Under the pieces are notes generated by a model. It saw only the letters and a list, made by a program, of their open reading frames with translations, was not told the DNA's origin and made no database searches. The translations under genes were made by a program, and so were the position numbers. From a virus (taxonomy: Duplodnaviria; Caudoviricetes), in IMG/VR virus record IMGVR_UViG_3300035670_000226, positions 1 through 60,246 of that record: 60,246 nucleotides of DNA, one strand, 5' to 3'. This document shows positions 18,992 to 36,127 of this stretch, piece after piece. How positions within the stretch are numbered: the stretch's first letter is position 1; every line of letters begins with the position of its first letter.

Positions 18992-19100
18992 AAGCAGTGA
19001 CTAGACGCCGCTTAGCAGCATCAAACTTTTTCGGGCGCTTCTTAGACGCCTTACCATTGTTTCTCTTGTCATTGCGAACTCGTGCACCTTTAGCGGCCAT
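18990..19100 (-). CDS. Very basic 36-aa peptide (not in ORF track)
   Basis: TAATG coupling to upstream gene; MAAKGARVRNDKRNNGKASKKRPKKFDAAKRRLVTA. Confidence 0.55.
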   Translation of the reverse strand: MAAKGARVRNDKRNNGKASKKRPKKFDAAKRRLVTA

Positions 19101-19270
19101 TATCTATCCTTACCCCATCCTGAGCCTTTGAACGTGACCGCTCCTACTCCAAACTTCTTCTGTCTAGGTTTATAGCAATCAGCACAAAGAATAGTAGGTG
19201 ATGCGGTAATTGGGTGAGAAATCTCTACAACTGTACTGCAATGAGCGCAGTAGTACTCATAAGTGGCCAC
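19100..19270 (-). CDS. FmdB-family zinc-ribbon protein
   Basis: TYEYYCAHC...CADC...FKGSGW; GTG start with AAGGAGA SD. Confidence 0.85.
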   Translation of the reverse strand: MATYEYYCAHCSTVVEISHPITASPTILCADCYKPRQKKFGVGAVTFKGSGWGKDR

Positions 19271-19286
19271 ATTTCTCCTTTGCACG

Positions 19287-19366
19287 TGGACTGGGTGGGA
19301 GTCGAACCCACGTTTCTGGAGGAGAGAAAGGAATTAAGCCCCTGCCAGACTTACCAACGCCAGCCC
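19287..19366 (-). ncRNA. Minimal tmRNA-like tRNA mimic (tRNA-like domain only, Ala identity)
   Basis: GGGCTGG/CCAGTCC-A acceptor (G3.U70, A73); stemless D-loop with GG; TCTGG/CCAGA helix; AAC linker; GTGGG-TTCGACT-CCCAC T-arm. Confidence 0.7.
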
Positions 19367-19369
19367 TAA

Positions 19370-19460
19370 GAACAGTGGTGGGGACAAGACCCAGAAGACG
19401 TAATTGAAGGTTTTGTTAGATTAATAGGTGATTAATAAAACCTTGTCCCTACCACTGTTC
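19370..19460 (-). other. Long hairpin (19-bp closing stem) abutting the tRNA mimic
   Basis: gaacagtggtggggacaag / cttgtccctaccactgttc, one mismatch. Confidence 0.65.
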
Positions 19461-19481
19461 AGTTTTGAATAGAAAAGGTTA

Positions 19482-19712
19482 CTACTCCTCAGTTAGAGGT
19501 TCAGCAACAGGTTCAGTATACCGAATTGTGTCAAGGTATGCACTAATTGAGTGGTATGTTGCATCAAAAAATGCACCAGTGTGTGCAAGCAGGTCGCACA
19601 CGTGGGTGTCAGGCTCACGACCATAAGACTGACTCAAATACTCTTCTAGTGCTGGTCCAAAAGTTTCTACAAACTGCTTTGGACTCATGTAGGGCGGATT
19701 AGTGAACGGCAT
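19482..19712 (-). CDS. Hypothetical protein
   Basis: Coupled to hsp20 stop. Confidence 0.6.
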   Translation of the reverse strand: MPFTNPPYMSPKQFVETFGPALEEYLSQSYGREPDTHVCDLLAHTGAFFDATYHSISAYLDTIRYTEPVAEPLTEE

Positions 19713-20236
19713 TAGTTAATCTCAATCTGCTTAGGCTTCTTCTCCTCAGGGAGCTCAAGCTCTAGCATAATGGTTAACAGACCATCTTCAAGCTTGGCGC
19801 TCTTTACCTCAATGTACTCTGCGATAGCAAAGGTAGTGGTGAAGTTGCGCTGAGCGATGCCGTGGTGAATGACTTCGCCGTACTTGCCCTCTTCAGGGAT
19901 GTCGTTGCGGTCTTCAATGTCTGACCGCACCGTGAGAACACGGTCCTTTACAAACACCTCGACCTCTTCCTTCTTGAAACCAGCAAGTGCCATGGTGATG
20001 GTGTAGTTGTCACCAGACTTGGTCAGGTTGTATGGAGGGAAGGAGGGTTTGTGTTGGGACAACTCCTTGAGGGTGCTGAACACAGAGTCGTAGCCAATAC
20101 CCCAACGGTCAATGTTAGGGAATAGAGTGTAAATGGTAGCAGGCTTCTGGTCGACCTTTGCTGGGGTCTTGTAAGGCTGCTTTGGTGGGTAGTGGTCGTG
20201 GTTATCCCACTGTTGGAATTCAGGATTTCTAGACAT
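19712..20236 (-). CDS. hsp20: Small heat-shock protein (Hsp20/IbpA-like)
   Basis: FPPYNL, ALAGF, HHGIAQRNF..TF, AKLEDGLLTI.L...PEEKKPKQIEI. Confidence 0.93.
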   Translation of the reverse strand: MSRNPEFQQWDNHDHYPPKQPYKTPAKVDQKPATIYTLFPNIDRWGIGYDSVFSTLKELSQHKPSFPPYNLTKSGDNYTITMALAGFKKEEVEVFVKDRVLTVRSDIEDRNDIPEEGKYGEVIHHGIAQRNFTTTFAIAEYIEVKSAKLEDGLLTIMLELELPEEKKPKQIEIN

Positions 20237-24371: not shown

Positions 24372-24815
24372 ATGCCATCAGCAACCAAGTCCCGTACTAC
24401 GGGCACCGCTTCACCAGAAACATCCGTACGCAGACCCGTCACCGTCAAGTTGGGTAAGTCCACTGACACGGTACAGGTATTCGACACTGGCGTTCGCCTA
24501 GACACCTCTATGTATGCGGTTCACCAAATCATAGAAGCCCTTAGGAACGAAGCCAGTTCCTGGTATGTAGTAGAAGACACCCCTGCCAACCGTAAGGTCT
24601 TGGCTAAGAAAGACGCTAACCGCAAGGCTAAGGGTAAGTCTCCACGCCCTCGTATCATCGAAGGTGGCTACATCCTTCTAGGTGGTAAAGCAAGACACCA
24701 CCGTGAGCAGGGTACCTCAGTTCCTAACCTAGTACGCACTTACTTGGGCTTCAAGCAAGAGCAGAAGCGTTGGGAAGCCGCTGCTCAAGCACACCGAGAC
24801 GCACTACACGACTAG
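24372..24815 (+). CDS. Basic hypothetical early protein
   Basis: GAAAGGA SD; first gene of the plus-strand block. Confidence 0.7.
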   Translation: MPSATKSRTTGTASPETSVRRPVTVKLGKSTDTVQVFDTGVRLDTSMYAVHQIIEALRNEASSWYVVEDTPANRKVLAKKDANRKAKGKSPRPRIIEGGYILLGGKARHHREQGTSVPNLVRTYLGFKQEQKRWEAAAQAHRDALHD

Positions 24816-24849
24816 GTTTACCAACCGCCTAGCATCACCGCAAGCCATT

Positions 24850-24884
24850 AGCCCGCCTATAAAGCCATTATGGGCGGGCTTTTG
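24850..24884 (+). terminator. Intrinsic terminator
   Basis: agcccgcctata / tatgggcgggct followed by TTTT. Confidence 0.7.
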
Positions 24885-25194
24885 GCTACTGCCAGCCAAT
24901 CAGCAAGGCTAAGCAAGCGAGTGACCAGACTACCAAGGCACCCCCCCAGATGTTATCAAGTAATAAGCTGGCATAGGCGAAAGCACCCCCCTTGCTCATC
25001 TATCCCCCATAGAGTCTATGCGAGCCTGTGGCTTGATAAAGCCTGGCAAGAGAGTATCTATCTCTATGTATGTATCTCTCTCTATCAGTAACACACTAAA
25101 GACCTCCTCTTGAGAGTTCACTCAAGGGGGAGAACCCCCTTAGACCCCCCGTAGCGGGGGCGTTCTAAGGAAAGCCCTAACGAAAGGAAGAAAG

Positions 25195-25413
25195 ATGGGC
25201 AGGAAGAACAAGAACGCAAGCAAGCGTTCTATCCAAGTCACGAAAGTGATTACGCCACACCAGCTAAAGCGAGAAGCCGAAAGAGCACGGCACTTGCTTC
25301 AGGGTATAGAAGAGCCCTATGCCCACCGCACTAGAGAAGAGTTTACTCACAAGGTAAGTGCTTCTCTCTCCGAAGATGTACAAGCCGAACTGATGGCTAT
25401 CTTCCAGAAGTAG
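25195..25413 (+). CDS. Hypothetical early protein
   Basis: GAAAGGAA SD. Confidence 0.65.
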   Translation: MGRKNKNASKRSIQVTKVITPHQLKREAERARHLLQGIEEPYAHRTREEFTHKVSASLSEDVQAELMAIFQK

Positions 25414-25465
25414 AGCCTCAGGGGGGCGAAAGCCCCCCTGTAACCCCCCGTAGAAAGGAACAGCA

Positions 25466-25651
25466 GTGAACAAAAAGTTCAACATTGACTTCGAAGCGTG
25501 GTCGCTTGTCGAAGCCAAAGACCAAGACGAAGCCGAAGCCATCGCACGAAAGATTGTTAGCATCTGTGACAATGCTTTGACTGACGAAGGCTATTCGATG
25601 AGCATGGTTGTCGTTGATGACGGCATTACCGAAGCAGATGAGGAGAACTAA
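25466..25651 (+). CDS. Small acidic protein, VEA-motif family
   Basis: VEAKDQDEAEAIA; AGAAAGGAA SD. Confidence 0.65.
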   Translation: MNKKFNIDFEAWSLVEAKDQDEAEAIARKIVSICDNALTDEGYSMSMVVVDDGITEADEEN

Positions 25652-25833
25652 TGCCTAAGTATGTAATCAAAGCCAAGAGAACACATTGGTATGAAACAAC
25701 CGTTGAAGCAGACGGGGAGATTGAAGCCGCTGACCAAGTGAGAGATTGGTTAGCGGACGATTGGGAAGAAGGAAACTTTGAAGTCCAAGCACAATGGGAC
25801 TTCGATGCCATCAAAGTAGAGGAGGGTAACTAA
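25651..25833 (+). CDS. Small acidic protein, VEA-motif (DpnD/PcfM-like)
   Basis: KYVI...TTVEADGEIEA; TAATG coupling. Confidence 0.65.
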   Translation: MPKYVIKAKRTHWYETTVEADGEIEAADQVRDWLADDWEEGNFEVQAQWDFDAIKVEEGN

Positions 25834-26018
25834 TGGCATACAAGTTGTTTTACATCGACAGCAAAGGTGACAAGCGTTACCTACACAGCACAGAAACAGG
25901 CAAGGTGTGGGAAACAGACAGCAAAGCCGTAGCCCTCAAGATGCGATGGGCAGAATGGCAACAAGGTGGGTTGCTCACCATTGAAAGCACAGACACACGA
26001 CCAAAGGAGGATAACTAA
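25833..26018 (+). CDS. Hypothetical early protein
   Basis: TAATG coupling, GGAGG SD. Confidence 0.65.
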   Translation: MAYKLFYIDSKGDKRYLHSTETGKVWETDSKAVALKMRWAEWQQGGLLTIESTDTRPKEDN

Positions 26019-26224
26019 TGGGTAGAGAAGTTCACTTTGTTATCGCAGTAGATGTAGATACTAAGCAGGTCTACATAGATGACGATACATACTCAGCCAA
26101 GTTTGATTACGAACAAGGCTATTACGACACCGACAAAGAGCAATGGTTTGAAGATGAAGACCGCACCTTGTATGACCTAGCACTAGGCATACTCAACAAC
26201 AAAGCACAACTAGAAAGGGAATAA
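26018..26224 (+). CDS. Acidic hypothetical early protein
   Basis: TAATG coupling, AGGAGG SD. Confidence 0.65.
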   Translation: MGREVHFVIAVDVDTKQVYIDDDTYSAKFDYEQGYYDTDKEQWFEDEDRTLYDLALGILNNKAQLERE

Positions 26225-26227
26225 CAA

Positions 26228-26503
26228 ATGGCTAGATTCGCCGTTGATGTTGTCTTTACATACAAAGCAACATTCTTAGTAGAAGCAGACAGCCACCACA
26301 ATGCCAAAGTTATTGTGGCTGATAGCCCAAACTTGCACCCCAAGTTGTGGCACGGGAAAGAAGTGTTCCCTGCTAACACAGAGCGTGACAATGGTTGGTC
26401 ACGAATAACAATTGGTGAGTCTGAGGTGCTTGACAAAGCACAAGCATCTGCCACCAAGCCAAGAGCAAACTTCCCCGACTACGGGGATGACGGGGAGGAG
26501 TAG
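26228..26503 (+). CDS. Hypothetical protein, VEA-motif family
   Basis: FLVEADSHHNAK. Confidence 0.6.
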   Translation: MARFAVDVVFTYKATFLVEADSHHNAKVIVADSPNLHPKLWHGKEVFPANTERDNGWSRITIGESEVLDKAQASATKPRANFPDYGDDGEE

Positions 26504-26505
26504 AG

Positions 26506-26802
26506 ATGCCTAGTAAGAAGTATTGGAAGATGCTAGACACTGACCACCCTGCTTGTGTGAAGAACACAGCCGCTCTAGCCAGCCTGTCCACTAACTATGA
26601 CTTTCCTTCACCATTCAGTCTGTTCCTAGACCTGATTGGTTGGAGCGAAGACAACCTCGGTGAGAGGTTGTATCAACTAGATAGTCTGCACCTTGACTAC
26701 CTAGCTGGAAGCTACCTCGGTAGTGCTCTGTCTGAGTATTCAGACAAGCCTGACGAGGTTACAGCTTGGGTCACCAAGCTGTGTGCAGAAGAAACAAAAT
26801 AA
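26506..26802 (+). CDS. Hypothetical early protein
   Basis: GGAGGAG SD. Confidence 0.6.
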   Translation: MPSKKYWKMLDTDHPACVKNTAALASLSTNYDFPSPFSLFLDLIGWSEDNLGERLYQLDSLHLDYLAGSYLGSALSEYSDKPDEVTAWVTKLCAEETK

Positions 26803-26824
26803 CAACTGTTCTAAGGAGGACACA

Positions 26825-28591
26825 ATGAGCACAACGCTGCTCACCAAGAGCGACATAATCTTGTCGACTCACGCATCAAGTTACATCCGTATGCAACTTG
26901 ACGGCCACAGGCGTTACCCTGGTGCTGTCTCTGTGTACGGAGATGACCCTGTAGACCTTGACAAGGTTCACAGCGACCCTAACGAGGCTAAGGACTACGA
27001 CAGCCTTGTGCAGACCACTCGTTGGCTTCTCAAGTCTTTCGAGCACGCCGAGCACATCATTAGGAACAAGCACAAGTTCATTGCCCTAGCTGAAGCTAAT
27101 GACGACAGCGTGTCAGTGACCTTCAAGCACGCAGGCATTGTTTCTGTGTGGGATTCAATGCGAGGTACTGATAGCAGGTTGCTCAACATCAGAGCATCTG
27201 CAGTTGGTAAGCTGCTTGAGCCTTACGCAGCTCTGTTGTCATCCGACCACCCCACTGCAATTAGGTACAAAGACTGGGGCTCAAGCGTGTGGGTGTTCAA
27301 CAACCCCAAGCTTCAGCAGAGCTATGTAGGTGACGCACACACACCTACACTGCAACGAGCACTGTGGCTTAGTAAGCGTAACAACTTACTCAACATGCTA
27401 GGCAGTGGTCAGCGTTACGAGACCAAGCGTGACCTAATGGTTGATGACACTCCTCGTATTGCTTTACTTGTACAGCCTGACCACCAGAGCTCAATCACAG
27501 TGAGTGACTTCCGCAAGTTAGCAACAGCAATGGATAGACACGCCAACCACAAGCCGTCTATCTATGACTTGCAGTCCATTCGCTCTGACCTACTCGGTGA
27601 GCAGGTAGCCCTACAACGACACGAGAGTGTTCAGCGTCAGGTCATTGCTCGTGAGAACTTCACCAAGTATTGGGACACACTCAAGCGGGCTATCCGTGAT
27701 GAGGCACCATCGCTTGTGGATGCAGAGCTACAGTGGAGAGAGATACCACTGCACCCAGCAGACACACCAAGCTCACGCACTTGGGGCATTGAGGTCGAGA
27801 CTGTTCGTGCTCACTTGGTTAACCGACCTGCTGGTTGGGACTCACGCTACGATGGCTCACTTCCTGATGAAGGTGGTAGCAGTTGTAACTGTGACTGTGA
27901 CAGCTGCTATGATGGTGACCACTGCAATGACAGAGGCAGTGACTGCTACGACGACAACGATGAGGACATCGAGTCGAGAGAGTTCGTCTCTCCTGTCCTT
28001 GAGAGCTTCAACTCTCGTGGTCTTCGTTCTATCTGTGACGAGCTACCTACCAGAGAGGAACGCACTGAGCCTGGCATCCATGTCCATGTCGGTGCCCGTG
28101 ACTTGACGATAGCAGATGTTGGTAGACTGCTAGTTGCTTACAGCGTAGCTGCACCAATCATCATGCCTCTCTACCACCGAGAGGTATACGGATACTGCAA
28201 GGAGACAGGCACTAGCACCATTCAGTCCTGGCTCAGTGCAGCTCGTAGGTATCTCAAGGAGCAGGGCAGACTGCCTCAGCCTGTAGAAATCTACAGCTCA
28301 CTAAGCAGTGACCGCTACCAAGATGTCAATGTCACAGCACTTGATAGGCACGGCACCATTGAGTTCCGTGCTATGGGTCCTTACTATGACTACGACCACC
28401 TAGTCCGTTGGGCTTGGTTCTGTCGTGAGATGGTCAATGTATCCAAGCTTGGTCTACCTCAGCAGGTATGGACACGGTGCAAGTCTGTACGAGATGTAGT
28501 CACCGTGCTTCGCAAGTACGGTTCAGAGTCACCGTTTGACAAGGACTTCTTGGCAATCGACACAGCATCACTCGTCTTACAAGACGACTAA
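26825..28591 (+). CDS. Putative amidoligase (COOH-NH2 ligase, glutamine-synthetase-like fold)
   Basis: TWGIEVE, EFVSPVL, GIHVHVGA, RYQDVN, GTIEFR; start at MSTT with AAGGAGG SD. Confidence 0.85.
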   Translation: MSTTLLTKSDIILSTHASSYIRMQLDGHRRYPGAVSVYGDDPVDLDKVHSDPNEAKDYDSLVQTTRWLLKSFEHAEHIIRNKHKFIALAEANDDSVSVTFKHAGIVSVWDSMRGTDSRLLNIRASAVGKLLEPYAALLSSDHPTAIRYKDWGSSVWVFNNPKLQQSYVGDAHTPTLQRALWLSKRNNLLNMLGSGQRYETKRDLMVDDTPRIALLVQPDHQSSITVSDFRKLATAMDRHANHKPSIYDLQSIRSDLLGEQVALQRHESVQRQVIARENFTKYWDTLKRAIRDEAPSLVDAELQWREIPLHPADTPSSRTWGIEVETVRAHLVNRPAGWDSRYDGSLPDEGGSSCNCDCDSCYDGDHCNDRGSDCYDDNDEDIESREFVSPVLESFNSRGLRSICDELPTREERTEPGIHVHVGARDLTIADVGRLLVAYSVAAPIIMPLYHREVYGYCKETGTSTIQSWLSAARRYLKEQGRLPQPVEIYSSLSSDRYQDVNVTALDRHGTIEFRAMGPYYDYDHLVRWAWFCREMVNVSKLGLPQQVWTRCKSVRDVVTVLRKYGSESPFDKDFLAIDTASLVLQDD

Positions 28592-28616
28592 CCACTAACG
28601 AATAGGAGAACATACC

Positions 28617-29780
28617 ATGTGTGGTATCGCAGGCTTTAGCCTATCCCCAAACAGCAAGGTCAAGACACGAGAGCTTGCTCATGAACTACTAACATCCATC
28701 GAGGACAGAGGTTACATGGCTTCTGGTTATGCTTACCAAGTCAATGACACGATGGGTTACTTCAAGGCTGCAGTGCCTGGCTCACAGCTACCGCTCAAGC
28801 AGTTGCCTAAGTCAGCACGGCATGTCATCTTGCACACTCGCCTTGCTACTCACGGTGCAGTGACAGACAATCGCAACAACCACCCTGTGTTGTCACCTAG
28901 TCAAGACATTGCTCTAGTACACAACGGTGTCATCTACAACCACCAAGAGGTACGCTTCAAGATTGACGGCGACCTACCTGATGTAGACACCAGCGTTATC
29001 CCTGCTGTCATTGAGCAGCTCGGTGTTGACTCACTAGATGTGCTTGACGGCGATGCAGCTATCGCATGGTTCAACCGCAACGAAGCTAACACCTTGCACC
29101 TTGCTAGGTTCCAGCACTCACCACTTGTCATGTGTCAGATTGAGGATGGCTCGTTCATCTTCGCTAGTACTGAGAAGTTGTTGTGGGAGGTTCTAGTTCA
29201 GCTTGACCTCATGCCTACATGGATGGAGACAGCTAAGGAGCTTGACTACTTCACAATTCGTGATGGCATTGTGCTCTCTAGTAGCAGACTACCTGAGCCT
29301 AAGCACTACAACAACTACTACGACTACAACTACTACCGTCACCAGACTGCTGGTGCTAAAAGTAGCAGTACTACGAGTGGTGCCACCTACAACATCTATG
29401 GCTCTCAGTATGTCGAGGGCTATGGTTGGAGCGAGTGGGATGACTTCGGAGAGGAAGACGACAGATACTTCTACGCTGAGTCATCATCAGACAATGTGAA
29501 TAACAACAGGGTTATCTCTATCCCTGAATACGAGGATGGGTACGAGGACAACATCATTCCCTTCACTAAGCCCGACATCAGTCGTGGCAAGTGGTACACC
29601 CGCATCCTTGAACATGGTGAGGAACAGACCGACCTCTTGGTGTACAACGAGGGACAAGTAGAGCAATGGAAGGATGAGCTGTATCTATTGTCAGATAGCC
29701 GCAGTAACATGACTGTCATTGACTACGGTGTCATCAGACGAGACGGCACTCTAGTGTCTGCTACTGAAGACATCTTCTAA
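28617..29780 (+). CDS. Class II (Ntn) glutamine amidotransferase
   Basis: MCGIAG, RG, LHTRLAT.G, NNHP, LVHNGVI.N, DTS. Confidence 0.9.
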   Translation: MCGIAGFSLSPNSKVKTRELAHELLTSIEDRGYMASGYAYQVNDTMGYFKAAVPGSQLPLKQLPKSARHVILHTRLATHGAVTDNRNNHPVLSPSQDIALVHNGVIYNHQEVRFKIDGDLPDVDTSVIPAVIEQLGVDSLDVLDGDAAIAWFNRNEANTLHLARFQHSPLVMCQIEDGSFIFASTEKLLWEVLVQLDLMPTWMETAKELDYFTIRDGIVLSSSRLPEPKHYNNYYDYNYYRHQTAGAKSSSTTSGATYNIYGSQYVEGYGWSEWDDFGEEDDRYFYAESSSDNVNNNRVISIPEYEDGYEDNIIPFTKPDISRGKWYTRILEHGEEQTDLLVYNEGQVEQWKDELYLLSDSRSNMTVIDYGVIRRDGTLVSATEDIF

Positions 29781-29854
29781 CAGATGTGGTTGGGCTGTCC
29801 CGTGAGGACAGGGGCAGCCCAGCCCAACACAAACAAACACAGAAAGGAACACGC

Positions 29855-30052
29855 ATGGGATACGAACCAGGAGTAATCACACGCATAGCTAATACCTACA
29901 CACTGCTCCAAGATAGAGGGGTCAATGTGTGGTATGGCGAAGCAGGTGACGATACCGAACTAGCCAAGATGACGCTAGACGGCAAGAACTTGCAGGAGCT
30001 TCTTGATTACTGCAAGGAGTATGGATACCTAGATGATGAGGAGGATAACTAA
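29855..30052 (+). CDS. Hypothetical early protein
   Basis: AGAAAGGAA SD before MGYEPG. Confidence 0.6.
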   Translation: MGYEPGVITRIANTYTLLQDRGVNVWYGEAGDDTELAKMTLDGKNLQELLDYCKEYGYLDDEEDN

Positions 30053-30249
30053 TGCCAAGATTTCGAATTGGATACAGCGATGAATCTTATGGCTGGTATT
30101 ACTTTGATGCCGAGAACGCTGAACAAGCTCAGGAGCTAATCTTCTTAGTTGAGGAAGGCGAACTTGATGTAAAGAAACTACCTGCTTTTTCTCACAAGGA
30201 GAACGGCGGTCAACATGAGTGGATTAACCCACTAGAGGAGGTTAGCTAA
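30052..30249 (+). CDS. Hypothetical protein, VEA-motif family
   Basis: YYFDAENAEQAQE; TAATG coupling. Confidence 0.6.
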   Translation: MPRFRIGYSDESYGWYYFDAENAEQAQELIFLVEEGELDVKKLPAFSHKENGGQHEWINPLEEVS

Positions 30250-30349
30250 TGAGTGAGTGTATGCACCCAGAGTTCAGATGGTTGAACTGTGATGAGCATG
30301 GTAAAGACTGCACAGAACAGGTCTGTGTAGATTGTGGAGAGGAGAAATA

Positions 30350-30598
30350 ATGTCAACAGTACCTACGGTCAAAGAGGACCTCAACGCCAAGTACATACAC
30401 AACGAGTATGGGTGGATGGTGGGTAAAACCATCAAAGCAGTTAGACCACTGACTAGAGAAGAAAAAGATAACTACGGGTGGAGCGGTTCAGAAGTTCCGT
30501 TTGTCATTTTCTTTGAGGATAGGTCGTGGGTAATCCCTATGTCTGATGATGAAGGCAATGGGGCTGGAGCACTGGATTACTACAAGAGAGGAATGTAA
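30350..30598 (+). CDS. Hypothetical phage protein
   Basis: GKTIKAVR.L...SDDEGNGAG motif; AGGAGA SD. Confidence 0.65.
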   Translation: MSTVPTVKEDLNAKYIHNEYGWMVGKTIKAVRPLTREEKDNYGWSGSEVPFVIFFEDRSWVIPMSDDEGNGAGALDYYKRGM

Positions 30599-30749
30599 TG
30601 CCAAAAAAACCAATCTGGTTAGATGACTACCAAGCAGAAGTTTTGCTTGGGTATGTAGGTGAACTACTAGACGATAAAAGCAAAGTCCCTGACAATGACA
30701 GGGAAGTGCTAAGTGCTGTATACGAACAACTAATAGAGGAGGAAAAGTA

Positions 30750-31046
30750 ATGGCAATTACAACAAGCGAGAGAGCAGAGCTACGCAATTACCTAGCAGAA
30801 GCTAAAGGTATTGCATGGGATACCTGCCACAAAATCTATGTACTCATGGATGACGAGCAGATGAAACTCATGCATGAGTATGAGTATGACCCACTGATTA
30901 GTTCAGACGAGATGACACCTGCAAAGATGTCAGCAACCATATCCAAGTGGTACAAAGAGTCATGCGGACTCAGATTTGTACAGGCAATCTCTACCTTTGA
31001 TAACGGTGAAGGAGATTACCACGACATAGTTTCACAAAGATACTGA
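30750..31046 (+). CDS. Hypothetical phage protein
   Basis: WDTCHKIY...SCGLRFV; GAGGAGG SD. Confidence 0.65.
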   Translation: MAITTSERAELRNYLAEAKGIAWDTCHKIYVLMDDEQMKLMHEYEYDPLISSDEMTPAKMSATISKWYKESCGLRFVQAISTFDNGEGDYHDIVSQRY

Positions 31047-31265
31047 TAAAAGAAAGGAAACAAAATGCCATACAGTAAAGAAGCACACGACCTACTAGAC
31101 CAAACCTTTGAGGCTCTGAAAACCAAGAAGGGACAGTTTGCTTGGGCGTACATGGTTGGCTTGCTAATGCCTAACGTTTCTCTAGAAGACGCTAAGCGTA
31201 TTGCTGAAATTGTAGAGGGATTAGATAGCGACAAGTAGTCGCTCAATAAAAAGAAAGGAAAACAA

Positions 31266-31757
31266 ATGGGACTAGACATGTATCTAGATGTACGTAAGTT
31301 CATTTCAGTAATCGATTGGAAAAGTGTTCCAAAAGAAGGAGTGCCTGATGGAACGTCTTTCAGTGACTACAAATCAGCTGAGTTCTTGAAGTTAGCAGAG
31401 TTCTTTCCTGAAAGCCTCAAGAAGTATTCTCAGACAGGAAGCTATGCGACACTAAACGTAGGTTACTGGAGAAAAGCGTATCAAATTCATAACTGGTTTG
31501 TGAAGCACGTGCAGAAAGGCAACGACAATTGCGAGCCGTATTGGGTAAGCCGAGACACACTAAAAGAGCTGTTAACTACAGTAGACAAAGTGCTGTCTGG
31601 AAGTAAGCGAACAGCAGAAGAGCTGTTGCCTTCAACTTCCGACTACCACGACTGGTATTACGATGACCTGCGGCACACCAAAGAAATGCTTGAGTCAGTA
31701 TTAGCAGATGTGCCAGAATCATGGGACTACGACTTCTACTACAACTCAAGTTGGTAA
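31266..31757 (+). CDS. Conserved phage protein of unknown function
   Basis: MGLDMYL...YWRKA.QIHNWF...Y.SSW pattern; AGAAAGGAA SD. Confidence 0.75.
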   Translation: MGLDMYLDVRKFISVIDWKSVPKEGVPDGTSFSDYKSAEFLKLAEFFPESLKKYSQTGSYATLNVGYWRKAYQIHNWFVKHVQKGNDNCEPYWVSRDTLKELLTTVDKVLSGSKRTAEELLPSTSDYHDWYYDDLRHTKEMLESVLADVPESWDYDFYYNSSW

Positions 31758-31771
31758 GAAAGGAACAACAA

Positions 31772-31981
31772 ATGAAAACTACTATCAAAGGTAAAACCCC
31801 AAACAATTGGACAGACGGAGATTGGACTGTTCGATTTGTTTATGAGTCCTTCTTCATTGCGGTTAACACAGTAGCAAATAGTGGAGAACAAGCAATCAGG
31901 TATGCCATGAATGAGATACCTGTAATAGAAGCTGAGCCTTTAGAAATAGAGGCTGAGCTTATGGGTACATACAGATACTAG
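31772..31981 (+). CDS. Hypothetical protein, VEA-like motif
   Basis: TVANSGEQAIRYA; AGAAAGGAA SD. Confidence 0.55.
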   Translation: MKTTIKGKTPNNWTDGDWTVRFVYESFFIAVNTVANSGEQAIRYAMNEIPVIEAEPLEIEAELMGTYRY

Positions 31982-31993
31982 AAAGGAAATGCC

Positions 31994-32266
31994 ATGAAAG
32001 ATGATGGTGCAAGAGGTAGAGGAGACGCCAAGTTCTTTTGGAAGAAGACTTGGATGAAAGGGCATGCACTCAATGAGGAACACAAGTACAAGCTAAACGA
32101 GTTAGCAGAAATTCGTGCAAGGTTATTCGATGGCAGAGTTCGGTCGGATGACAAGGTAGACGACATGCTTGCTCGCCAGATGGCGTTGCTTGACATGCTT
32201 TACATTGACGGCGTAGATGTTGAATACAGAAAGGAAGCACCATGTACCACGCAGATGATGAAATGA
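31994..32266 (+). CDS. Hypothetical protein
   Basis: AGAAAGGAA SD. Confidence 0.55.
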   Translation: MKDDGARGRGDAKFFWKKTWMKGHALNEEHKYKLNELAEIRARLFDGRVRSDDKVDDMLARQMALLDMLYIDGVDVEYRKEAPCTTQMMK

Positions 32267-32538
32267 ACGAGCTCTACGAGTTCATGCGAGAAAAGGCTGA
32301 CGCTCGTGAGGAACAAGAAGAGTATGAGGGTGACTCATCCGATACAGAGTCACTAGCAATCGCTAAAAGAATGCACAGAGAGGACTACTAATGAGTACAC
32401 AGCTGACCGAATGGCTGGCAACAATCGCCAGCGCCAACACAAACAAACCCACACTTGACACACATGTGATGGTACGAAAGGATTCTCTTAGCAAGATTAT
32501 CCTGGCCGCATACAAACTAGGAAAGGAAGATGCAGCAA

Positions 32539-32928
32539 ATGAAAACAATAACTGATTGGTCGTATGACCTCAACGTGTTCTCCTCAAACGAAAATGGTGT
32601 TCTTGACACTGTTCAACCCTCAATCTACTTCATGAGGGAGCCTGAAGAACCCTCAATCTTCGAGAAGGTCAGTGACAGGGTATACCTACAATCGTTCAAG
32701 GTGCCTACTAGTGAACGTAAGTCTCTGCGAGTTGCTTTCGATGAAGATGAATGGGGAGATGACTTCTTCCTGAGCTTAGATTGTTTCTACGACGAAATGG
32801 AGAGGTGGGGAGTACCAACGGCGTTCTATAGAATCCTGTCCAACTTACCTGTAATTGGCCACGATTTAGTTCTGTCTGACTTAGAGTACGACAAACACGG
32901 AGAAGTAGTTTGGAACAAAAATGTCTGA
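32539..32928 (+). CDS. Acidic hypothetical protein
   Basis: GAAAGGAA SD. Confidence 0.55.
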   Translation: MKTITDWSYDLNVFSSNENGVLDTVQPSIYFMREPEEPSIFEKVSDRVYLQSFKVPTSERKSLRVAFDEDEWGDDFFLSLDCFYDEMERWGVPTAFYRILSNLPVIGHDLVLSDLEYDKHGEVVWNKNV

Positions 32929-33307
32929 TTCCGATAGTTTTCTAACAGAAGAGGGCATGTTCAAGCTCATTGGGGCACTTACTACTGAAGTGATTAACCA
33001 CGGTCAAAGAGAAGCTGACCTAGTTGGTTTGGATGCTGAAAACCAACTCACGAGCGAGCAAATTGCCATCATCATGAAGACCAACACTCTGCTGTCTACT
33101 TTTGCAGGGGTATTGGTCAAGATTGTTGAACGACAAAACCCTAAGTTTGCTCAGCTTGTACTAGAAGTGTGGACTTCTCCCGCCATTCAAGAGCTAGTGG
33201 AGATTGCCTTTGTAGAAGAAATCAACGGTGCGTTGCTTTTGGTAGAAGAAAGCATCAACAGGTTAGAGCAAGAAATCAACCAGTCAGATAGAAAGGAGAA
33301 CGAATGA
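32921..33307 (+). CDS. Helical hypothetical protein
   Basis: ORF track; overlaps neighbours. Confidence 0.55.
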   Translation: MSDSDSFLTEEGMFKLIGALTTEVINHGQREADLVGLDAENQLTSEQIAIIMKTNTLLSTFAGVLVKIVERQNPKFAQLVLEVWTSPAIQELVEIAFVEEINGALLLVEESINRLEQEINQSDRKENE

Positions 33308-33443
33308 CAATCTACATTTGCGGGTATTGCGAAGAGTTCATTGACGACGAAAAGCAACTTGCGTATTGTCAAGGGTGTAATGACTACAAAGGTCTAATAA
33401 AAGTGGCGGAAACAGACCTAGAGTAAAAAGAAAAGGAGGGCAC

Positions 33444-33713
33444 ATGAGTTACGAAATAGGGCAAGAAATTGCCAATTCCCCTCTCTCGTTAGAGGACAAA
33501 CTATCCTGGCAGCTTACTGCCAATCACTACCCACCAGTTGGAAACGAGTTCATCCCGATTGCTACTTTGGCTATTCTTCATGCCAAAGATAATGATTGGG
33601 ACACAGTTCTAGAGTTTCCTAACGGACTGCAGCGAACCGTATCGTTTGTTGTAGAAGGGCTTCACCTACAACCATTCATCGACGGAATGTCAATTCCAAA
33701 GGAGGACAACTAA
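33444..33713 (+). CDS. Hypothetical phage protein
   Basis: L.ANHYPPV...VEGLHL motif; AGGAGG SD. Confidence 0.65.
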   Translation: MSYEIGQEIANSPLSLEDKLSWQLTANHYPPVGNEFIPIATLAILHAKDNDWDTVLEFPNGLQRTVSFVVEGLHLQPFIDGMSIPKEDN

Positions 33714-33892
33714 TGGCAATCTACGAAGTACACGTTCACACTATCTACAAAGCAGAAGCAAAGTCACCTCAAGAAGCATATAGAAAGATTGACTCTGGGG
33801 CAGAGTTCCCAGTGCTTCCTTATGAAGAAAACACTCACTTTTTAGGCTCAGTGATTCTGGACGTCAAAGAAATGAAAAAGGAGGAATTGTGA
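33713..33892 (+). CDS. 59-aa protein, VEA-motif family (not in ORF track)
   Basis: MAIYEVHVHTIYKAEAKSPQEAYRK; TAATG coupling. Confidence 0.55.
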   Translation: MAIYEVHVHTIYKAEAKSPQEAYRKIDSGAEFPVLPYEENTHFLGSVILDVKEMKKEEL

Positions 33893-34025
33893 GGTACTTG
33901 TGCACTGACTGCAGGGTAGAAACAAGCGAACACCAATGCTACAAGTGTGGTGGTTACAAAGCCATCATGAATGAAGTAGAGGCCCAAGATTATTTGGGGT
34001 ACGACTGGTTTGAGGAGGAACCACA

Positions 34026-34244
34026 ATGAAAAATGCAAAAGACCTTAAACAGCTAATCTTACAGGCAGAGGACCAAGGTTGGCAAATTTTGAAAACTAAC
34101 GGAGACCATCTAAAATGGGTATCACCAACAGGTCTCGTAGTGTTCTCAGGAGCTACGCCGTCTGACCGACGTGCACTCAAGAACATCACACGAGAGTTGA
34201 GGGTCCGAGGTTTCATCGAAATAAAGAAAAAGAATAAGAGGTAA
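34026..34244 (+). CDS. HicA-like mRNA interferase-fold protein
   Basis: L..AE.QGW....NGDHLKW.SPTG...TPSD.RA.KN....LR..G. Confidence 0.65.
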   Translation: MKNAKDLKQLILQAEDQGWQILKTNGDHLKWVSPTGLVVFSGATPSDRRALKNITRELRVRGFIEIKKKNKR

Positions 34245-34246
34245 AA

Positions 34247-34567
34247 ATGGAAAGAAGTCTTGTCAAAGTTACTGATGCTCTGTGTGCTGAGGTAGACCCA
34301 GAGTTATTCTTTGCTCAAGACTCCATGAAGTATGGGGGCACCGCATCGTACATCAACGTCAGGTATGCAAAAATGCTGTGTGCTAGGTGCCCTCTTACTT
34401 ACTCTTGTCTTATGACTGCGGTAAAGAACACTGAGGAGTATGGCATCTGGGGAGGGTCAACTCCTAGCGAGCGCCGTCACATTCACACTAATGCAGACGT
34501 AGTAAAGTTCGTGTCAAAACTCAACGATGAGAACCGAGCTTTGCCTAGGCGCAAAAGAAATAGATAA
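34247..34567 (+). CDS. whiB: WhiB-family Fe-S transcription factor
   Basis: C.EVDPELFF...AK.LC..CP....C...YGIWGG; basic tail RRKRNR. Confidence 0.93.
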   Translation: MERSLVKVTDALCAEVDPELFFAQDSMKYGGTASYINVRYAKMLCARCPLTYSCLMTAVKNTEEYGIWGGSTPSERRHIHTNADVVKFVSKLNDENRALPRRKRNR

Positions 34568-34633: not shown

Positions 34634-36127
34634 CTAGTCTTCAATAGACTCTGAGATAATTCGAGTAGTTGCATCCTCATTTATAGGGTTCTGCATCTCT
34701 CTTAAAGCACTTGCACGGTCACCAAAAATAGCGCTCAAAACACCTCCGCTAGTCTCTCGGCTAGCAGTGATTTGAACAAACTCTTTGTTGCTTTCTAGGT
34801 CCTTCATATTGGACACTAACTTGAACAACCTGTCAATCTCTTGTGACACATTCGGGTCAGCGTATCCGCCACTCATTTCCTCTGCATACCGCATAAATGC
34901 TACCCTCTGGCCTTGCATCTCGATAATCGCAGTGAGCAAATCCTTCAGCTGTTCACGAGTTTTAACCTCTACCGGAAGGTTAAACGCACACATGTTATCT
35001 GGCTTAAATGCAGGGCAATTTGCAGCAACAAAACAGGTGTTACACTGCCTCAAAGAAGACTGCTGAGAACGTACTACAGCCACTTCTTTCAGGTTGTTAT
35101 CAGCGTCTACAATCGTCTTAGATTCAAACCCAAAAACAGGTAAGTTAACCTTTTCTGCAGGGTCTCTAGGCTCAACTTTTTTCCGCTCTACAGAACCCTT
35201 GTTATTAGAAGCCCCTAGGTCCAAATCCATCAAACCCGTATATAGAGACTCGTCGTTGTTATCTACTAACATCTCCTCAATTGATGGTAAATCGCCCTTG
35301 ATAACACGAAATCCGTTCTTCTTTTTATCTTTATCCATGCTCGCTTCTAACTGTAAATACGACCAAATAGCCACTTTAGTAGCCTCTAAAGTGTCGTCAG
35401 AGACAAACTTCTCAAAGTCTAACCCAGCATCACTGACAATACGAGCGTAACGTCTGCGAGCTTGGTCTTTCATTTTTTTAGGATAACGGACTAACTTACT
35501 TCCATCCCAAACAATGGTCTCTCCTCGTCTCATAGGAGAAATCCAAGACAAAGTGCTGGCGGTGTCGAACGGAATCTGACGTAAATTGTCAGGCTTGGCA
35601 GTAGCTAACGCATGAAAAGAAGTTCCATACTGAGCTTTAGCTGCTCTGACTAATCCAGAAAGAAAAGGCACATTCTCTATGGCAGTGCCAGGAATCGCCA
35701 CATTTTGGTATTGAGCTGCCCATTCTCCAACCAATAACGTGCTGTAAGTGTCATGCCAAACAACCCACATCTTCGGGTCATTTTCAAAGGCTGCTCTGTT
35801 CTGGAGTATCCTGGGCAATCCCCAAGCTTGACTATCAAACTCTACCCAGCCCTCTATTCTGTCGTAATTCAAAGCTACGAACTCTTCATAATTAGCTGCG
35901 TACTCTTCTAGCTCTCGCTTGGATAGACCTGCTTTGTCTGCTTGAGTGGCCCCTGAATCTACCCACACTTTCATGTCAGGAAGAAACTGCTCCCCTACCA
36001 TGTAGGCTTTAGTCTTAGGCAGACCTCGCTTACACAAGCCCCAATAGTTCAACATCACGTTGGTAACACCATTGCGTTCTAGCAAGGTGCGATTGCTAGG
36101 AATCTCTACGCCACCAAATATAAGCAT
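34634..36127 (-). CDS. TGT/DpdA-like TIM-barrel protein fused to a Cys-cluster C-terminal domain
   Basis: VWVDSGA, VVWH, VAIPG, FHALA, PFDTASTLSW; CNTC....NCPAF....MC. Confidence 0.6.
   Translation of the reverse strand: MLIFGGVEIPSNRTLLERNGVTNVMLNYWGLCKRGLPKTKAYMVGEQFLPDMKVWVDSGATQADKAGLSKRELEEYAANYEEFVALNYDRIEGWVEFDSQAWGLPRILQNRAAFENDPKMWVVWHDTYSTLLVGEWAAQYQNVAIPGTAIENVPFLSGLVRAAKAQYGTSFHALATAKPDNLRQIPFDTASTLSWISPMRRGETIVWDGSKLVRYPKKMKDQARRRYARIVSDAGLDFEKFVSDDTLEATKVAIWSYLQLEASMDKDKKKNGFRVIKGDLPSIEEMLVDNNDESLYTGLMDLDLGASNNKGSVERKKVEPRDPAEKVNLPVFGFESKTIVDADNNLKEVAVVRSQQSSLRQCNTCFVAANCPAFKPDNMCAFNLPVEVKTREQLKDLLTAIIEMQGQRVAFMRYAEEMSGGYADPNVSQEIDRLFKLVSNMKDLESNKEFVQITASRETSGGVLSAIFGDRASALREMQNPINEDATTRIISESIED

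What the first reader, a model, noticed from the sequence alone, without database searches (positions are those of the whole stretch)
19319..19336. The tRNA mimic's apical loop is complementary to the phage's early-gene SD sequence
Seen: the loop and adjacent arm read UUCCUUUCUCUCCU. UUCCUUUCU is the exact complement of AGAAAGGAA, found upstream of early ORFs at 25452, 29841, 31051, 31252, 31757, 31980 and 32228. CUCCU complements AGGAG. It also mimics the actinobacterial 16S 3' end (CCUUUCU). Inference: a stable tRNA scaffold presenting an anti-SD guide, which could block initiation on early or host mRNAs, or capture an mRNA in trans as a substitute for the missing mRNA-like domain.
Basis: partly seen in the sequence, partly recalled or inferred. 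Interest (0 to 1): 0.75.

Follow-up and report, generated by a model that had tools for sequence, protein, structure and literature searches.

The report
Phage mini-tmRNA with 16S-like loop
A phage gene for a small tRNA-shaped RNA, a stripped-down relative of the bacterial ribosome-rescue RNA, carries an open loop that matches the ribosome-binding sites of seven phage genes, but nothing yet shows that the match is used.

Summary
The sequence observation holds. On the minus strand, 19287-19366 encodes an 80-nt tRNA-like RNA whose predicted 14-nt apical loop ends in UUCCUUUCU. This is the exact complement of AGAAAGGAA, which sits 5-7 nt before the start codon of seven plus-strand genes (8 copies in the window against 0.87 expected).

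The RNA belongs to a large, mostly unannotated viral family of "TLD-only" tmRNA relatives. All 33 unique sequences have G3:U70 and A73, no D stem and no anticodon loop. A model built without the window lineage scores the window at 57.6 bits. The one published phage case is mycobacteriophage DS6A.

The anti-SD-like loop is not a family trait. Only the window lineage has it (2 of 36 sequences), and it also has the largest loop (14 nt, median 5). Within the lineage the loop never varies, while flanks are 50-78% identical. Other lineages conserve their own, unrelated apical motifs.

Predicted loop-SD binding is no stronger than pairing to a free 16S-type tail, and complementarity stops at the 9-mer. 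There are no expression data.

Verdict: the scaffold is well supported. Anti-SD guide function is possible, about 0.15-0.2, and untested.

The parts
19287..19366 (-). TLD-only tmRNA-like RNA gene (80 nt to the discriminator A; no encoded CCA)
   Evidence: Fold (-29.4 kcal/mol). Model R1, built without this lineage, gives 57.6 bits and E 2.3e-11 as the only hit in the window. ARAGORN finds 0 genes and Rfam gathering gives 0 matches.
19360..19366 (-). Acceptor stem 5' strand GGGCUGG (G3 of the G3:U70 pair)
   Evidence: It pairs with 19288-19294. All 33 of 33 family sequences have G3:U70, and positions 4-7 covary.
19350..19359 (-). D-loop analogue CGUUGGUAAG, no D stem
   Evidence: Unpaired. It varies among haplotypes at 19352, 19353, 19356, 19358 and 19359.
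19339..19349 (-). 5' strand of the 10-bp helix (UCUGG-C-AGGGG, one bulge)
   Evidence: In L012 and L076 the bulge shifts by one base and the pairing is kept.
19325..19338 (-). 14-nt apical loop CUUAAUUCCUUUCU; its last 9 nt (19325-19333) are the complement of AGAAAGGAA
   Evidence: It is 14 of 14 identical in L012 and L076. A 42-nt contig piece covering 19302-19343 in run X5 is identical to the window, and no listed difference falls in the loop in 4 runs.
19315..19324 (-). 3' strand of the helix CUCCUCCAGA (contains CCUCC, but paired)
   Evidence: unpaired probability <=0.1.
19295..19314 (-). AAC linker and T arm (GUGGG UUCGACU CCCAC)
   Evidence: AAC and the T loop are invariant across 31 family sequences, and the first two T-stem pairs covary.
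19287..19294 (-). Acceptor 3' strand CCAGUCC plus discriminator A (U70, A73 equivalents)
19371..19458 (-). Conserved long hairpin immediately upstream of the RNA (possible processing or stability element)
   Evidence: Fold of -35 kcal/mol with z -6.4. It is 77.5% identical to L012, with compensatory changes visible in the alignment.
25452..25460 (+). AGAAAGGAA Shine-Dalgarno site, 5 nt before GTG of ORF 25466-25651
29841..29849 (+). AGAAAGGAA SD before ORF 29855-30052
31051..31059 (+). AGAAAGGAA SD before ORF 31065-31238
31252..31260 (+). AGAAAGGAA SD before ORF 31266-31757
31757..31765 (+). AGAAAGGAA SD before ORF 31772-31981
31980..31988 (+). AGAAAGGAA SD before ORF 31994-32266
32228..32236 (+). 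AGAAAGGAA SD before ORF 32242-32391
19100..19270 (-). Downstream gene, small zinc-ribbon protein; its SD AAAGGAG starts 8 nt after the RNA's 3' end
   Evidence: Pfam Zn_ribbon_8 at 27.7 bits, below the 34.4 cut-off. Syntenic in L012 and L076.
19712..20236 (-). Upstream gene, Hsp20 small heat-shock protein
   Evidence: Pfam HSP20 at 60.1 bits; phrog_432.

Best explanation
The element is a phage-encoded 'TLD-only' tmRNA relative. It is an ~80-nt RNA made of the tRNA-like domain of tmRNA, with no tag-coding part. It has a 7-bp acceptor stem with the alanine identity pair G3:U70 and discriminator A73, a D loop without a stem, and a T arm. A 10-bp helix capped by a loop stands where the anticodon arm would be.

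Inferred mechanism: the RNA is cut out of the minus-strand operon transcript like a tRNA, and CCA is added. It then engages the partners of the tmRNA tRNA-like domain (AlaRS, SmpB, EF-Tu). In doing so it competes with or diverts host trans-translation during infection, as reported for the DS6A-type molecule.

The apical hairpin is a lineage-specific add-on module. In this lineage it is an unusually large open pyrimidine loop whose last 8 nt equal the inferred 3' tail of the host 16S rRNA. It is therefore complementary to any strong SD of the phage. On present evidence this complementarity is more likely a by-product of that composition, or a binding site for some other partner, than a proven guide.

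Shown: sequence, predicted fold, family membership, family covariation, loop invariance within the lineage. Inferred: processing, charging, SmpB binding, any effect on translation.
For: Structure. The element is not a canonical tRNA or tmRNA.

Family:
- Pattern scans of IMG/VR gave 15 loci and 69 loci.
- 33 unique sequences have a fully paired acceptor stem. All 33 have G3:U70 and A73, although C70 was allowed by the pattern.
- The acceptor (positions 4-7) and the T stem covary.
- Model R1, made from 31 sequences without the window lineage, hits the window once at 57.6 bits.
- R1 also hits Streptomyces phages BRock, pSt2308 and GiJojo at 43-47 bits. These were not selected by my pattern and have the tmRNA-type D loop.
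- Three family members pass Rfam's tmRNA gathering score, with model positions 1-374 spanned by ~80 nt.

Literature (passages read):
- PMC4131195 lists the DS6A sequence as 'TLD only' and says a similar molecule strongly inhibits tmRNA, perhaps by titrating SmpB.
- PMC11915505 says the DS6A form inhibits endogenous tmRNA in E. coli.

The apical part is a variable module:
- Only 2 of 36 unique sequences carry the 16S-tail-like 8-mer.
- The BRock group keeps 16 of 17 apical nt while its helix covaries.
- Several unrelated backbones share CCCCAMGAGGG.

The RNA is under selection. It is 96.2% identical to L012, against 49.8-77.5% for the flanks.
Against: - The window element itself does not reach Rfam's tmRNA threshold.
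- Its D loop (YGUUGGUAAG) lacks the tmRNA-type GGUUUCGAC seen in the BRock group, so SmpB binding is less certain here.
- No SmpB gene is in the window (12.8 bits, below cut-off), and the host is unknown.
- There are no expression data.
- R1 was trained on sequences found with a pattern derived from this element, so its score is partly circular.
- Several observations fit a sequence-specific use of the loop and are not explained by a decoy model alone. The loop is large, open and invariant. Its 9-nt match is to the most frequent SD 9-mer. BRock has neither that loop nor any AGAAAGGAA.
Confidence: 0.5

Rival explanations
1. One reading: the loop is a working anti-SD guide. The stable tRNA-like scaffold presents UUCCUUUCU, which pairs with the AGAAAGGAA SDs of the plus-strand block (or with host SDs). 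This lowers 30S binding, for example to shut off that block when the minus-strand operon is expressed.
For: - The 9-nt complement is exact and matches 7 SDs.
- Only 0.6% of composition-matched shuffled loops do as well.
- The loop is predicted open, with an opening cost of 0.67 kcal/mol.
- It is the largest apical loop of 36 family sequences.
- It is invariant in all lineage variants seen, while the D loop and flanks vary.
- The ninth base of the SDs is A in 7 cases and G in 1. A pairs with the loop; G would pair better with CCUCC.
- BRock lacks both the loop and the 9-mer.
- Pyrimidine-rich loops that mask SDs are a known sRNA mode in Gram-positive bacteria (recalled, not from a call).
Against: - It is not a family trait.
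- Other lineages conserve other apical motifs, so invariance is not specific to this model.
- Predicted binding only equals that of a free 16S-type tail, so repression would need the RNA to be in excess over ribosomes.
- Complementarity ends at the 9-mer. The 14-mer gives 11 hits within 3 mismatches against 6.8 expected, and the 16-mer matches only itself.
- The adjacent CUCCU is paired.
- The sampling is shallow: one lineage and about four sequence variants.
- Neither timing of expression nor 'early' status is known.
Confidence: 0.17
2. The loop is a decoy copy of the 16S rRNA 3' tail. It binds a protein or nuclease that normally recognises that tail or pyrimidine-rich RNA (for example S1, a maturation or decay enzyme, or a defence factor), rather than mRNAs.
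For: - 8 nt are identical to the anti-SD tail implied by the phage's own SDs.
- The loop is open and invariant.
- Other lineages carry small conserved apical hairpins that look like protein-binding modules.
Against: No candidate partner was identified. The tail in the ribosome is a free 3' end, whereas here the sequence is internal to a loop. This is purely inferential.
Confidence: 0.08
3. The element is not a trans-acting RNA. It could be a degenerate tRNA gene, a tRNA-like processing signal that cuts the operon transcript between the Hsp20 and zinc-ribbon genes, or the phage half of an attachment site. On this reading the loop sequence is accidental.
For: - It lies inside an operon, 3 nt after a long conserved hairpin and 8 nt before the next gene's SD.
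- An alternative local pairing (AGGGG/CCUUU) would give a 7-nt loop CUUAAUU with a UAA 'anticodon'. I read this directly from the sequence.
- The most invariant stretch is the 3' part of the RNA, as in att cores.
Against: - 33 different full-length versions have a covarying acceptor and an invariant G3:U70, which argues for a selected RNA product.
- The 10-bp helix is kept in L012 and L076 through a shifted bulge.
- No tyrosine or serine recombinase is in the window (the contig is about 63% complete).
- No match was found in 185,579 species genomes to the element's pattern.
- ARAGORN and Rfam reject it as a tRNA.
Confidence: 0.08
4. Split tmRNA: the loop holds an SD-bearing phage mRNA in trans, so that after the alanyl-TLD enters a stalled ribosome, translation resumes on that mRNA.
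Against: No other family member has such a loop. There is no precedent. A 9-bp contact only equals the SD-ribosome contact. Nothing tested here bears on it.
Confidence: 0.02

Closest known systems
TLD-only tmRNA of mycobacteriophage DS6A (tmRNA Website; PMC4131195 and PMC11915505, passages read; experiment attributed there to Mao et al. 2009, which I did not read)
   Same: [quoted passage not shown] The proposed action is the same: interference with host tmRNA-SmpB.
   Different: I did not fetch the DS6A sequence, so there is no direct alignment. The window RNA belongs to a subgroup with a different D loop (GGNNAG rather than the GGUUUCGAC type) and an AAC linker. It carries a 14-nt open 16S-tail-like loop that no other family sequence has.
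Canonical bacterial tmRNA (SsrA, Rfam RF00023), tRNA-like domain
   Same: Shared features are a G3:U70 acceptor stem, A73, a T arm with a UUCGANU loop, a D loop without a stem, and a helix leaving the junction where the anticodon arm would be. Three family members pass the RF00023 gathering score.
   Different: There are no pseudoknots, no resume codon and no tag ORF. The window copy is below the RF00023 threshold, and ARAGORN finds no tmRNA.
CDS-less tmRNAs of organelles (jakobid mitochondria; ~65-bp plastid forms in Mallomonadaceae; PMC11915505, passage read)
   Same: They are minimal tRNA-like-domain-only forms that persist under selection.
   Different: Those are cellular or organellar genes paired with SmpB. 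This one is viral, with no SmpB gene seen.
SD-masking small RNAs with pyrimidine-rich loops in Gram-positive bacteria (RoxS/RsaE type; recalled, not from a call)
   Same: An exposed C/U-rich hairpin loop is complementary to purine-rich SDs.
   Different: Here the loop sits on a tmRNA-like scaffold and there is no evidence of regulation. Its sequence equals the generic 16S tail rather than a target-specific seed, and its complementarity does not extend beyond the SD.
3' tail of 16S rRNA (anti-SD)
   Same: UCCUUUCU in the loop equals the tail implied by the phage's SDs. Predicted pairing energy to AGAAAGGAA is equal, -10.0 kcal/mol for both.
   Different: The sequence is internal to a hairpin loop rather than a free 3' end. 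The core CCUCC next to it is locked in the helix.

Membership tests
tmRNA tRNA-like domain / TLD-only tmRNA | 7-bp acceptor stem with G3:U70 and discriminator A73 (alanine identity set) | tested here: met
   GGGCUGG/CCAGUCC with G3:U70 and A80 as discriminator. All 33 of 33 unique family sequences share G3:U70 and A73, and 31 of 31 are GU at that pair in A2.
tmRNA tRNA-like domain / TLD-only tmRNA | T arm with a 5-bp stem and 7-nt UUCGANU-type loop; D loop without a D stem; no anticodon loop, a helix instead | tested here: met
   for the fold, and for family conservation and covariation. ARAGORN finds no anticodon arm.
tmRNA tRNA-like domain / TLD-only tmRNA | Recognised by a curated tmRNA model (Rfam RF00023 gathering score) | tested here: not met
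   The window gives 0 gathering matches and only tRNA-Sec at 19.6 bits in the clan. Relatives L069, L072 and L022 pass at 49-52 bits against a cut-off of 47. The window is linked to them by model R1 at 57.6 bits.
tmRNA tRNA-like domain / TLD-only tmRNA | tmRNA-type D-loop sequence (GGUUUCGAC-like) thought to contact SmpB | tested here: not met
   The window has CGUUGGUAAG. BRock, pSt2308 and GiJojo have GGUUUUGAC, GGGUUCGAC and GGUUUCGAC. That this motif is typical of tmRNA is recalled.
tmRNA tRNA-like domain / TLD-only tmRNA | Charged by AlaRS, bound by SmpB and EF-Tu | not testable with these tools
   No SmpB gene in the window; the host is unknown.
Full tmRNA | Resume codon plus tag reading frame and pseudoknots | tested here: not met
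   There are 35 nt between the D loop and the AAC linker, forming one hairpin. ARAGORN finds no tag.
Canonical tRNA | Cloverleaf with D arm and 7-nt anticodon loop, detected by tRNA finders | tested here: not met
   ARAGORN finds 0 genes. The Rfam tRNA model is not reported, and tRNA-Sec scores 19.6 bits against a 47-bit cut-off.
SD-masking antisense sRNA | Accessible seed complementary to the SD of its targets | tested here: met
   9-nt exact complement to 7 SDs. The loop is open in the predicted ensemble.
SD-masking antisense sRNA | Seed conserved among homologues | tested here: inconclusive
   The loop is invariant in the window lineage but absent from 34 of 36 unique family sequences.
SD-masking antisense sRNA | Expression and target repression | not testable with these tools
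   The tools here cannot measure RNA levels or target repression; what was tried is given under Tried and rejected.
Phage attachment site in a tRNA/tmRNA gene | Adjacent integrase and identity to a host tRNA/tmRNA 3' end | tested here: not met
   No PF00589 or PF00239 match in the window. No match of the element's pattern in genome contigs. The contig is only about 63% complete.

The most novel reading that the evidence does not exclude
A tmRNA tRNA-like domain has been turned into a carrier for a 16S-tail mimic. The alanine-accepting, SmpB-type scaffold gives stability and ribosome affinity. The open UUCCUUUCU loop pairs with the AGAAAGGAA Shine-Dalgarno sites of the phage's plus-strand gene block (or with host SDs). 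One small RNA would then both interfere with ribosome rescue and time translation of a gene block. This would be a new class of phage riboregulator built on a tmRNA remnant.
Probability: 0.15. Interest if true: 0.8.

Novelty: new variant of a known kind. Interest (0 to 1): 0.5.

Why it matters
TLD-only tmRNAs are documented in print for a single phage, DS6A. My searches and the 2025 database paper found no other case.

Here the same architecture turns up widely:
- 69 viral loci from one pattern scan.
- 10 Streptomyces phage records, where it is unannotated or covered by a hypothetical-protein call.

This suggests interference with trans-translation may be a common phage strategy that standard tRNA and tmRNA finders miss.

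The window's variant is the only one whose apical module copies the ribosome's anti-SD tail. If that loop is used, it would link ribosome-rescue mimicry to control of translation initiation, and it would give a compact natural scaffold for presenting short RNA guides. If it is not used, the case warns that any pyrimidine loop resembling the 16S tail will look like a guide against strong SDs.

Tried and rejected
- RNAcofold of the RNA with each of 30 plus-block start regions gave about 0 kcal/mol for the AGAAAGGAA sites, and the window RNA ranked like the controls. I reject this test. Cofold cannot model pairing inside a closed hairpin loop, so I used opening plus duplex energies instead.
- RNA evidence: no RNA holder is listed for this stretch, so nothing can be said about expression.
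- Host assignment: the element's pattern has no match in genome contigs. Relatives of the neighbouring Hsp20 gene lie in unrelated bacteria (Polynucleobacter MAG, Alteromonas, Desulfobacterales), which gives no host. The nearest cultured phages are Streptomyces phages of the BRock group (terminase 54%, polymerase 37%). The 'actinobacterial' label stays a guess.
- Recurrence of a 16S-tail motif next to a T arm: the scan gave 22 loci. Apart from L012 these were 3' parts of full or two-piece tmRNAs, ordinary tRNAs or unclassified stretches, and none was another TLD-only RNA.
- Longer complementarity of the loop or loop plus arm to anything in the window: none beyond the 9-mer.
- Cis pairing of the loop with the SD of the next gene: not predicted in the 201-nt fold.
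- SmpB, tyrosine integrase, resolvase: none in the window.
- Counting AGAAAGGAA in relatives: L012 and L076 hold only 5 kb each and contain only the antisense of the loop. The rest of L076's record is not held.
- Supplementary files of papers were not opened. The tmRNA database tables in supplements of PMC11915505 may list more phage TLD-only forms than the text mentions.
- Structure prediction, complex prediction and protein searches were not used because the question concerns an RNA.
Full report
**1. Observation.**
The window is an IMG/VR viral contig of 60,246 bp, estimated about 63% complete. On the minus strand, 19320-19333 reads UUCCUUUCUCUCCU.

- AGAAAGGAA occurs 8 times, all on the plus strand. 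Dinucleotide shuffles give a mean of 0.87 and a maximum of 4.
- One copy is the antisense of the element itself.
- Each of the seven is followed after 5-7 nt by an ATG or GTG that opens an ORF.
- The 9-mer ties for the most frequent 9-mer of the window.

**2. Gene layout.**
Genes run on the minus strand at 1-23.9 kb (terminase, portal, lysis genes) and at 34.6-60.2 kb (DNA polymerase, helicase, a queuine tRNA-ribosyltransferase-like protein). They run on the plus strand at 24.3-34.6 kb, which holds many small ORFs plus an amidoligase and a glutamine amidotransferase.

By my own crude gene calls, SD matches of 7 nt or more to an AGAAAGGAGG-type ruler occur at 16 of 30 plus-block genes and 4 of 80 minus-strand genes. 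That the plus block is 'early' is plausible but not shown.

**3. What the element is.**
Minus strand 19287-19366 folds (-29.4 kcal/mol) into these parts:
- a 7-bp acceptor stem GGGCUGG/CCAGUCC with G3:U70 and discriminator A;
- a 10-nt unpaired D-loop analogue;
- a 10-bp helix with one bulge, capped by the 14-nt loop CUUAAUUCCUUUCU;
- an AAC linker;
- a T arm GUGGG-UUCGACU-CCCAC.

CCA is not encoded. ARAGORN finds nothing in the window. Rfam finds nothing at gathering level and only tRNA-Sec at 19.6 bits at relaxed level.

The element lies inside a minus-strand operon:
- Upstream are an Hsp20 gene and a 76-aa ORF.
- It follows a long conserved hairpin by 3 nt (z -6.4).
- It ends 8 nt before the SD of a small zinc-ribbon gene.
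- A convergent NlpC/P60 gene follows.

**4. Family.**
A scan of IMG/VR for the same acceptor stem plus a T arm gave 15 loci, none a canonical tRNA by eye. ARAGORN called only three, oddly.

A looser scan left the acceptor sequence free after GGG and required GGNNAG in the D loop, the AAC linker and the T arm. It gave 69 loci.
- 33 unique sequences, window included, have a fully paired 7-bp acceptor stem.
- All 33 have G3:U70 and A73, although the filter allowed C70.
- Before that count I dropped matches whose acceptor did not pair. Among the 42 unique matches of the stricter-register parse, these included true tRNAs and unclear cases.

An alignment of the 31 sequences outside the window lineage (A2) shows:
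- compensatory changes at acceptor pairs 4-7 and at the first two T-stem pairs;
- GU at pair 3:70 in 31 of 31.

A covariance model from A2 (R1) hits the window once, at 19287-19366 minus, with 57.6 bits and E 2.3e-11. The training set was found with a pattern derived from this element, so this score is partly circular.

Two independent lines support the same reading:
- (a) Three members (L069, L072, L022) pass Rfam's tmRNA gathering score, with the whole 374-position model spanned by about 80 nt. That means 5' and 3' tRNA-like parts with the middle missing.
- (b) R1 finds 78-nt elements in Streptomyces phages BRock, pSt2308 and GiJojo at 43-47 bits. These have G3:U70, A73 and a GGUUUCGAC-type D loop.

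The BRock copy is unannotated, lying between tRNA genes. BLAST finds such copies in 10 Streptomyces phage records. No feature is annotated under the match in nine (one of these records carries no annotation at all), and the tenth has a hypothetical-protein call.

BRock-group phages are also the closest cultured relatives of the window phage: terminase 54% and polymerase 36-37% identity.

**5. Literature.**
- PMC4131195 (passages read) lists 'Mycobacterium phage DS6A (TLD only)'. It states that a similar molecule strongly inhibits tmRNA, perhaps by titrating SmpB, citing Mao et al. 2009, which I did not read.
- PMC11915505 (2025, passages read) mentions CDS-less organellar forms. It cites DS6A as the phage case, shown to inhibit endogenous tmRNA in E. 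coli.
- Full-text searches found no description of a broad phage family or of an anti-SD loop on such an RNA. The searches were 'TLD-only' + tmRNA (0 papers), tmRNA + DS6A, tmRNA + 'Streptomyces phage' and anti-Shine-Dalgarno + phage + small RNA + mimic. For these I saw search listings only. Supplements were closed.

**6. The loop across the family.**
Among 36 unique sequences (33 plus three Streptomyces phages), only the two of the window lineage share 8 nt with the 16S-type tail. All others share 6 nt or fewer, and not the tail end.

With acceptor and T arm constrained, the window lineage has the largest apical hairpin loop: 14 nt against a median of 5 and a range of 3-14.

Other lineages have their own conserved apical modules:
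- BRock, pSt2308 and GiJojo keep 16 of 17 nt of AAAGCCGCACGCGGAAC while the helix below covaries.
- CCCCAMGAGGG recurs on four different backbones.

A scan for the tail heptamer next to a T arm found, besides L012, only full or two-piece tmRNAs, tRNAs and unclassified stretches.

**7. The loop within the lineage.**
- L012 (IMG/VR) and L076 (metagenome) are the only relatives with this RNA type in the collections.
- Against L012 the RNA is 77 of 80 identical and the loop 14 of 14. The upstream hairpin is 77.5% identical, the zinc-ribbon gene 64.3% and the 76-aa ORF 49.8%.
- The three differences lie at position 8 and at the bulge, where pairing is kept by a one-base shift.

Contigs of four public runs laid on 19150-19550 add variants:
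- Changes fall in the D loop (19352, 19353, 19356, 19358), at the bulge (19344), in the T loop (19301) and in the acceptor (19294).
- No listed difference falls in 19302-19343.
- In run X5 a 42-nt contig piece covering exactly that stretch is identical to the window.
- Record 10 has all 12 of its differences listed, none in the loop. Record 9 has three differences I cannot place.
- Differences within about 30 nt of a piece's end are not listed. For the X4, X7 and X11 pieces the loop lies outside that blind zone.

So the apical hairpin is at least as constrained as the T arm. The sample is about four sequence variants of one lineage.

**8. Chance and energetics.**
- Keeping loop composition, 0.6% of 2000 shuffles match 7 or more of 108 start regions over 9 nt, and 28% match at least one.
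- The 9-mer is open: opening costs 0.67 kcal/mol.
- Duplex energy with AGAAAGGAA is -10.0 kcal/mol, the same as for a free 16S-type tail.
- With target opening, totals are -7.3 to -9.2 kcal/mol for the loop against -8.0 to -9.9 for the tail.
- The neighbouring CUCCU is base-paired.
- Complementarity does not extend. The 14-mer gives 11 hits with up to 3 mismatches against 6.8 expected, and the 16-mer matches only itself.
- The base after AGAAAGGA is A in 7 SDs and G in 1. A fits the loop's U. It also fits the common preference for A-rich spacers.
- BRock (112.5 kb) has no AGAAAGGAA and two AGAAAGGAG. Loop and 9-mer therefore co-occur in the one comparison available.

**9. Reading.**
Identity as a TLD-only tmRNA relative is well supported; I put it near 0.9. 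Its mechanism, engaging AlaRS, SmpB and EF-Tu and disturbing host trans-translation, is inferred from the DS6A precedent and the identity elements. It is weakened here by the non-tmRNA-type D loop and the unknown host.

In favour of a sequence-specific role for the loop:
- The loop is real, open, unusually large and invariant.
- It is complementary to the phage's most repeated SD.

Against SD masking being that role:
- Family-wide variability of the apical part.
- Conservation of unrelated apical modules elsewhere.
- No energetic advantage over the ribosome.
- No extension of complementarity.
- No expression data.

I put a working anti-SD guide at about 0.15-0.2, a tail decoy for a protein at about 0.08, a non-RNA-product explanation at about 0.08 and the split-tmRNA idea at about 0.02.

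**10. Novelty.**
The kind is known (TLD-only tmRNA, DS6A). This copy is a new variant because of its 16S-tail-like open loop. The breadth of the family in viral contigs, and its absence from annotation, is itself worth a follow-up.

Noticed in passing
L002-L075 (IMG/VR loci); BRock NC_048650.1 97143-97220 minus; 10 Streptomyces phage records: There is a large family of phage TLD-only tmRNA-like genes. One pattern gave 69 loci and 33 unique full-length sequences, all with G3:U70 and A73. ARAGORN mostly misses them, and in cultured Streptomyces phage records they are unannotated or covered by a 'hypothetical protein' call. In the papers I searched and read passages of, only DS6A is cited.
   Followed up: partly
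window 19371-19458, minus strand: An 88-nt imperfect hairpin sits 3 nt upstream of the RNA (-35 kcal/mol, z -6.4). It is conserved in L012 and L076 with compensatory changes and has no U tract. It may be a processing or stability element of the precursor.
   Followed up: partly
L029, L027, L042, L066, L034, L072; L002 group and L041; BRock group (L086, L090, L091): The apical parts of the family fall into recurring small GC-rich hairpin modules (CCCCAMGAGGG; UUGCGGGAC; GCCGCACGCGG) on otherwise different backbones. This pattern suggests exchangeable binding sites.
   Followed up: no
L057 4062-4143 plus; L031 2854-2940 minus: Two family members with G3:U70 and A73 are called tRNA-Ile (GAU) by ARAGORN, and one reaches the Rfam tRNA threshold at 30.7 bits. 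They sit next to a tRNA-Thr. They could be alanine-accepting RNAs with an Ile-like anticodon arm, or simply miscalls.
   Followed up: no
window 24372-34567, plus strand: The plus block has two SD styles. AGAAAGGAA plus 5-7 nt appears at genes preceded by a gap. GAGGAGG(A/G)TAACTAATG appears where the stop of the previous gene abuts the start, which indicates coupled translation.
   Followed up: no
L096 11703-11741; L112; L097 (viral contigs with two-piece tmRNA genes): The acceptor piece of permuted tmRNAs in L096 and L112 contains UAAUUCCUUUCU, 12 nt shared with the window's loop. L097 differs by one base (UAACUCCUUUCU). There the motif forms part of a CCUUU/AAAGG hairpin. This is probably coincidence after selecting for the heptamer.
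   Followed up: no
window 34634-36127 minus; 26825-29780 plus: The window holds a DpdA-like queuine tRNA-ribosyltransferase homologue (phrog_887, E 3e-59) and an amidoligase plus glutamine amidotransferase pair. This hints at DNA base hypermodification.
   Followed up: no
L076 2388-2460: The close relative carries a tRNA-Gln (UUG) about 1.4 kb from its copy of the RNA. No tRNA is found anywhere in the 60-kb window.
   Followed up: no
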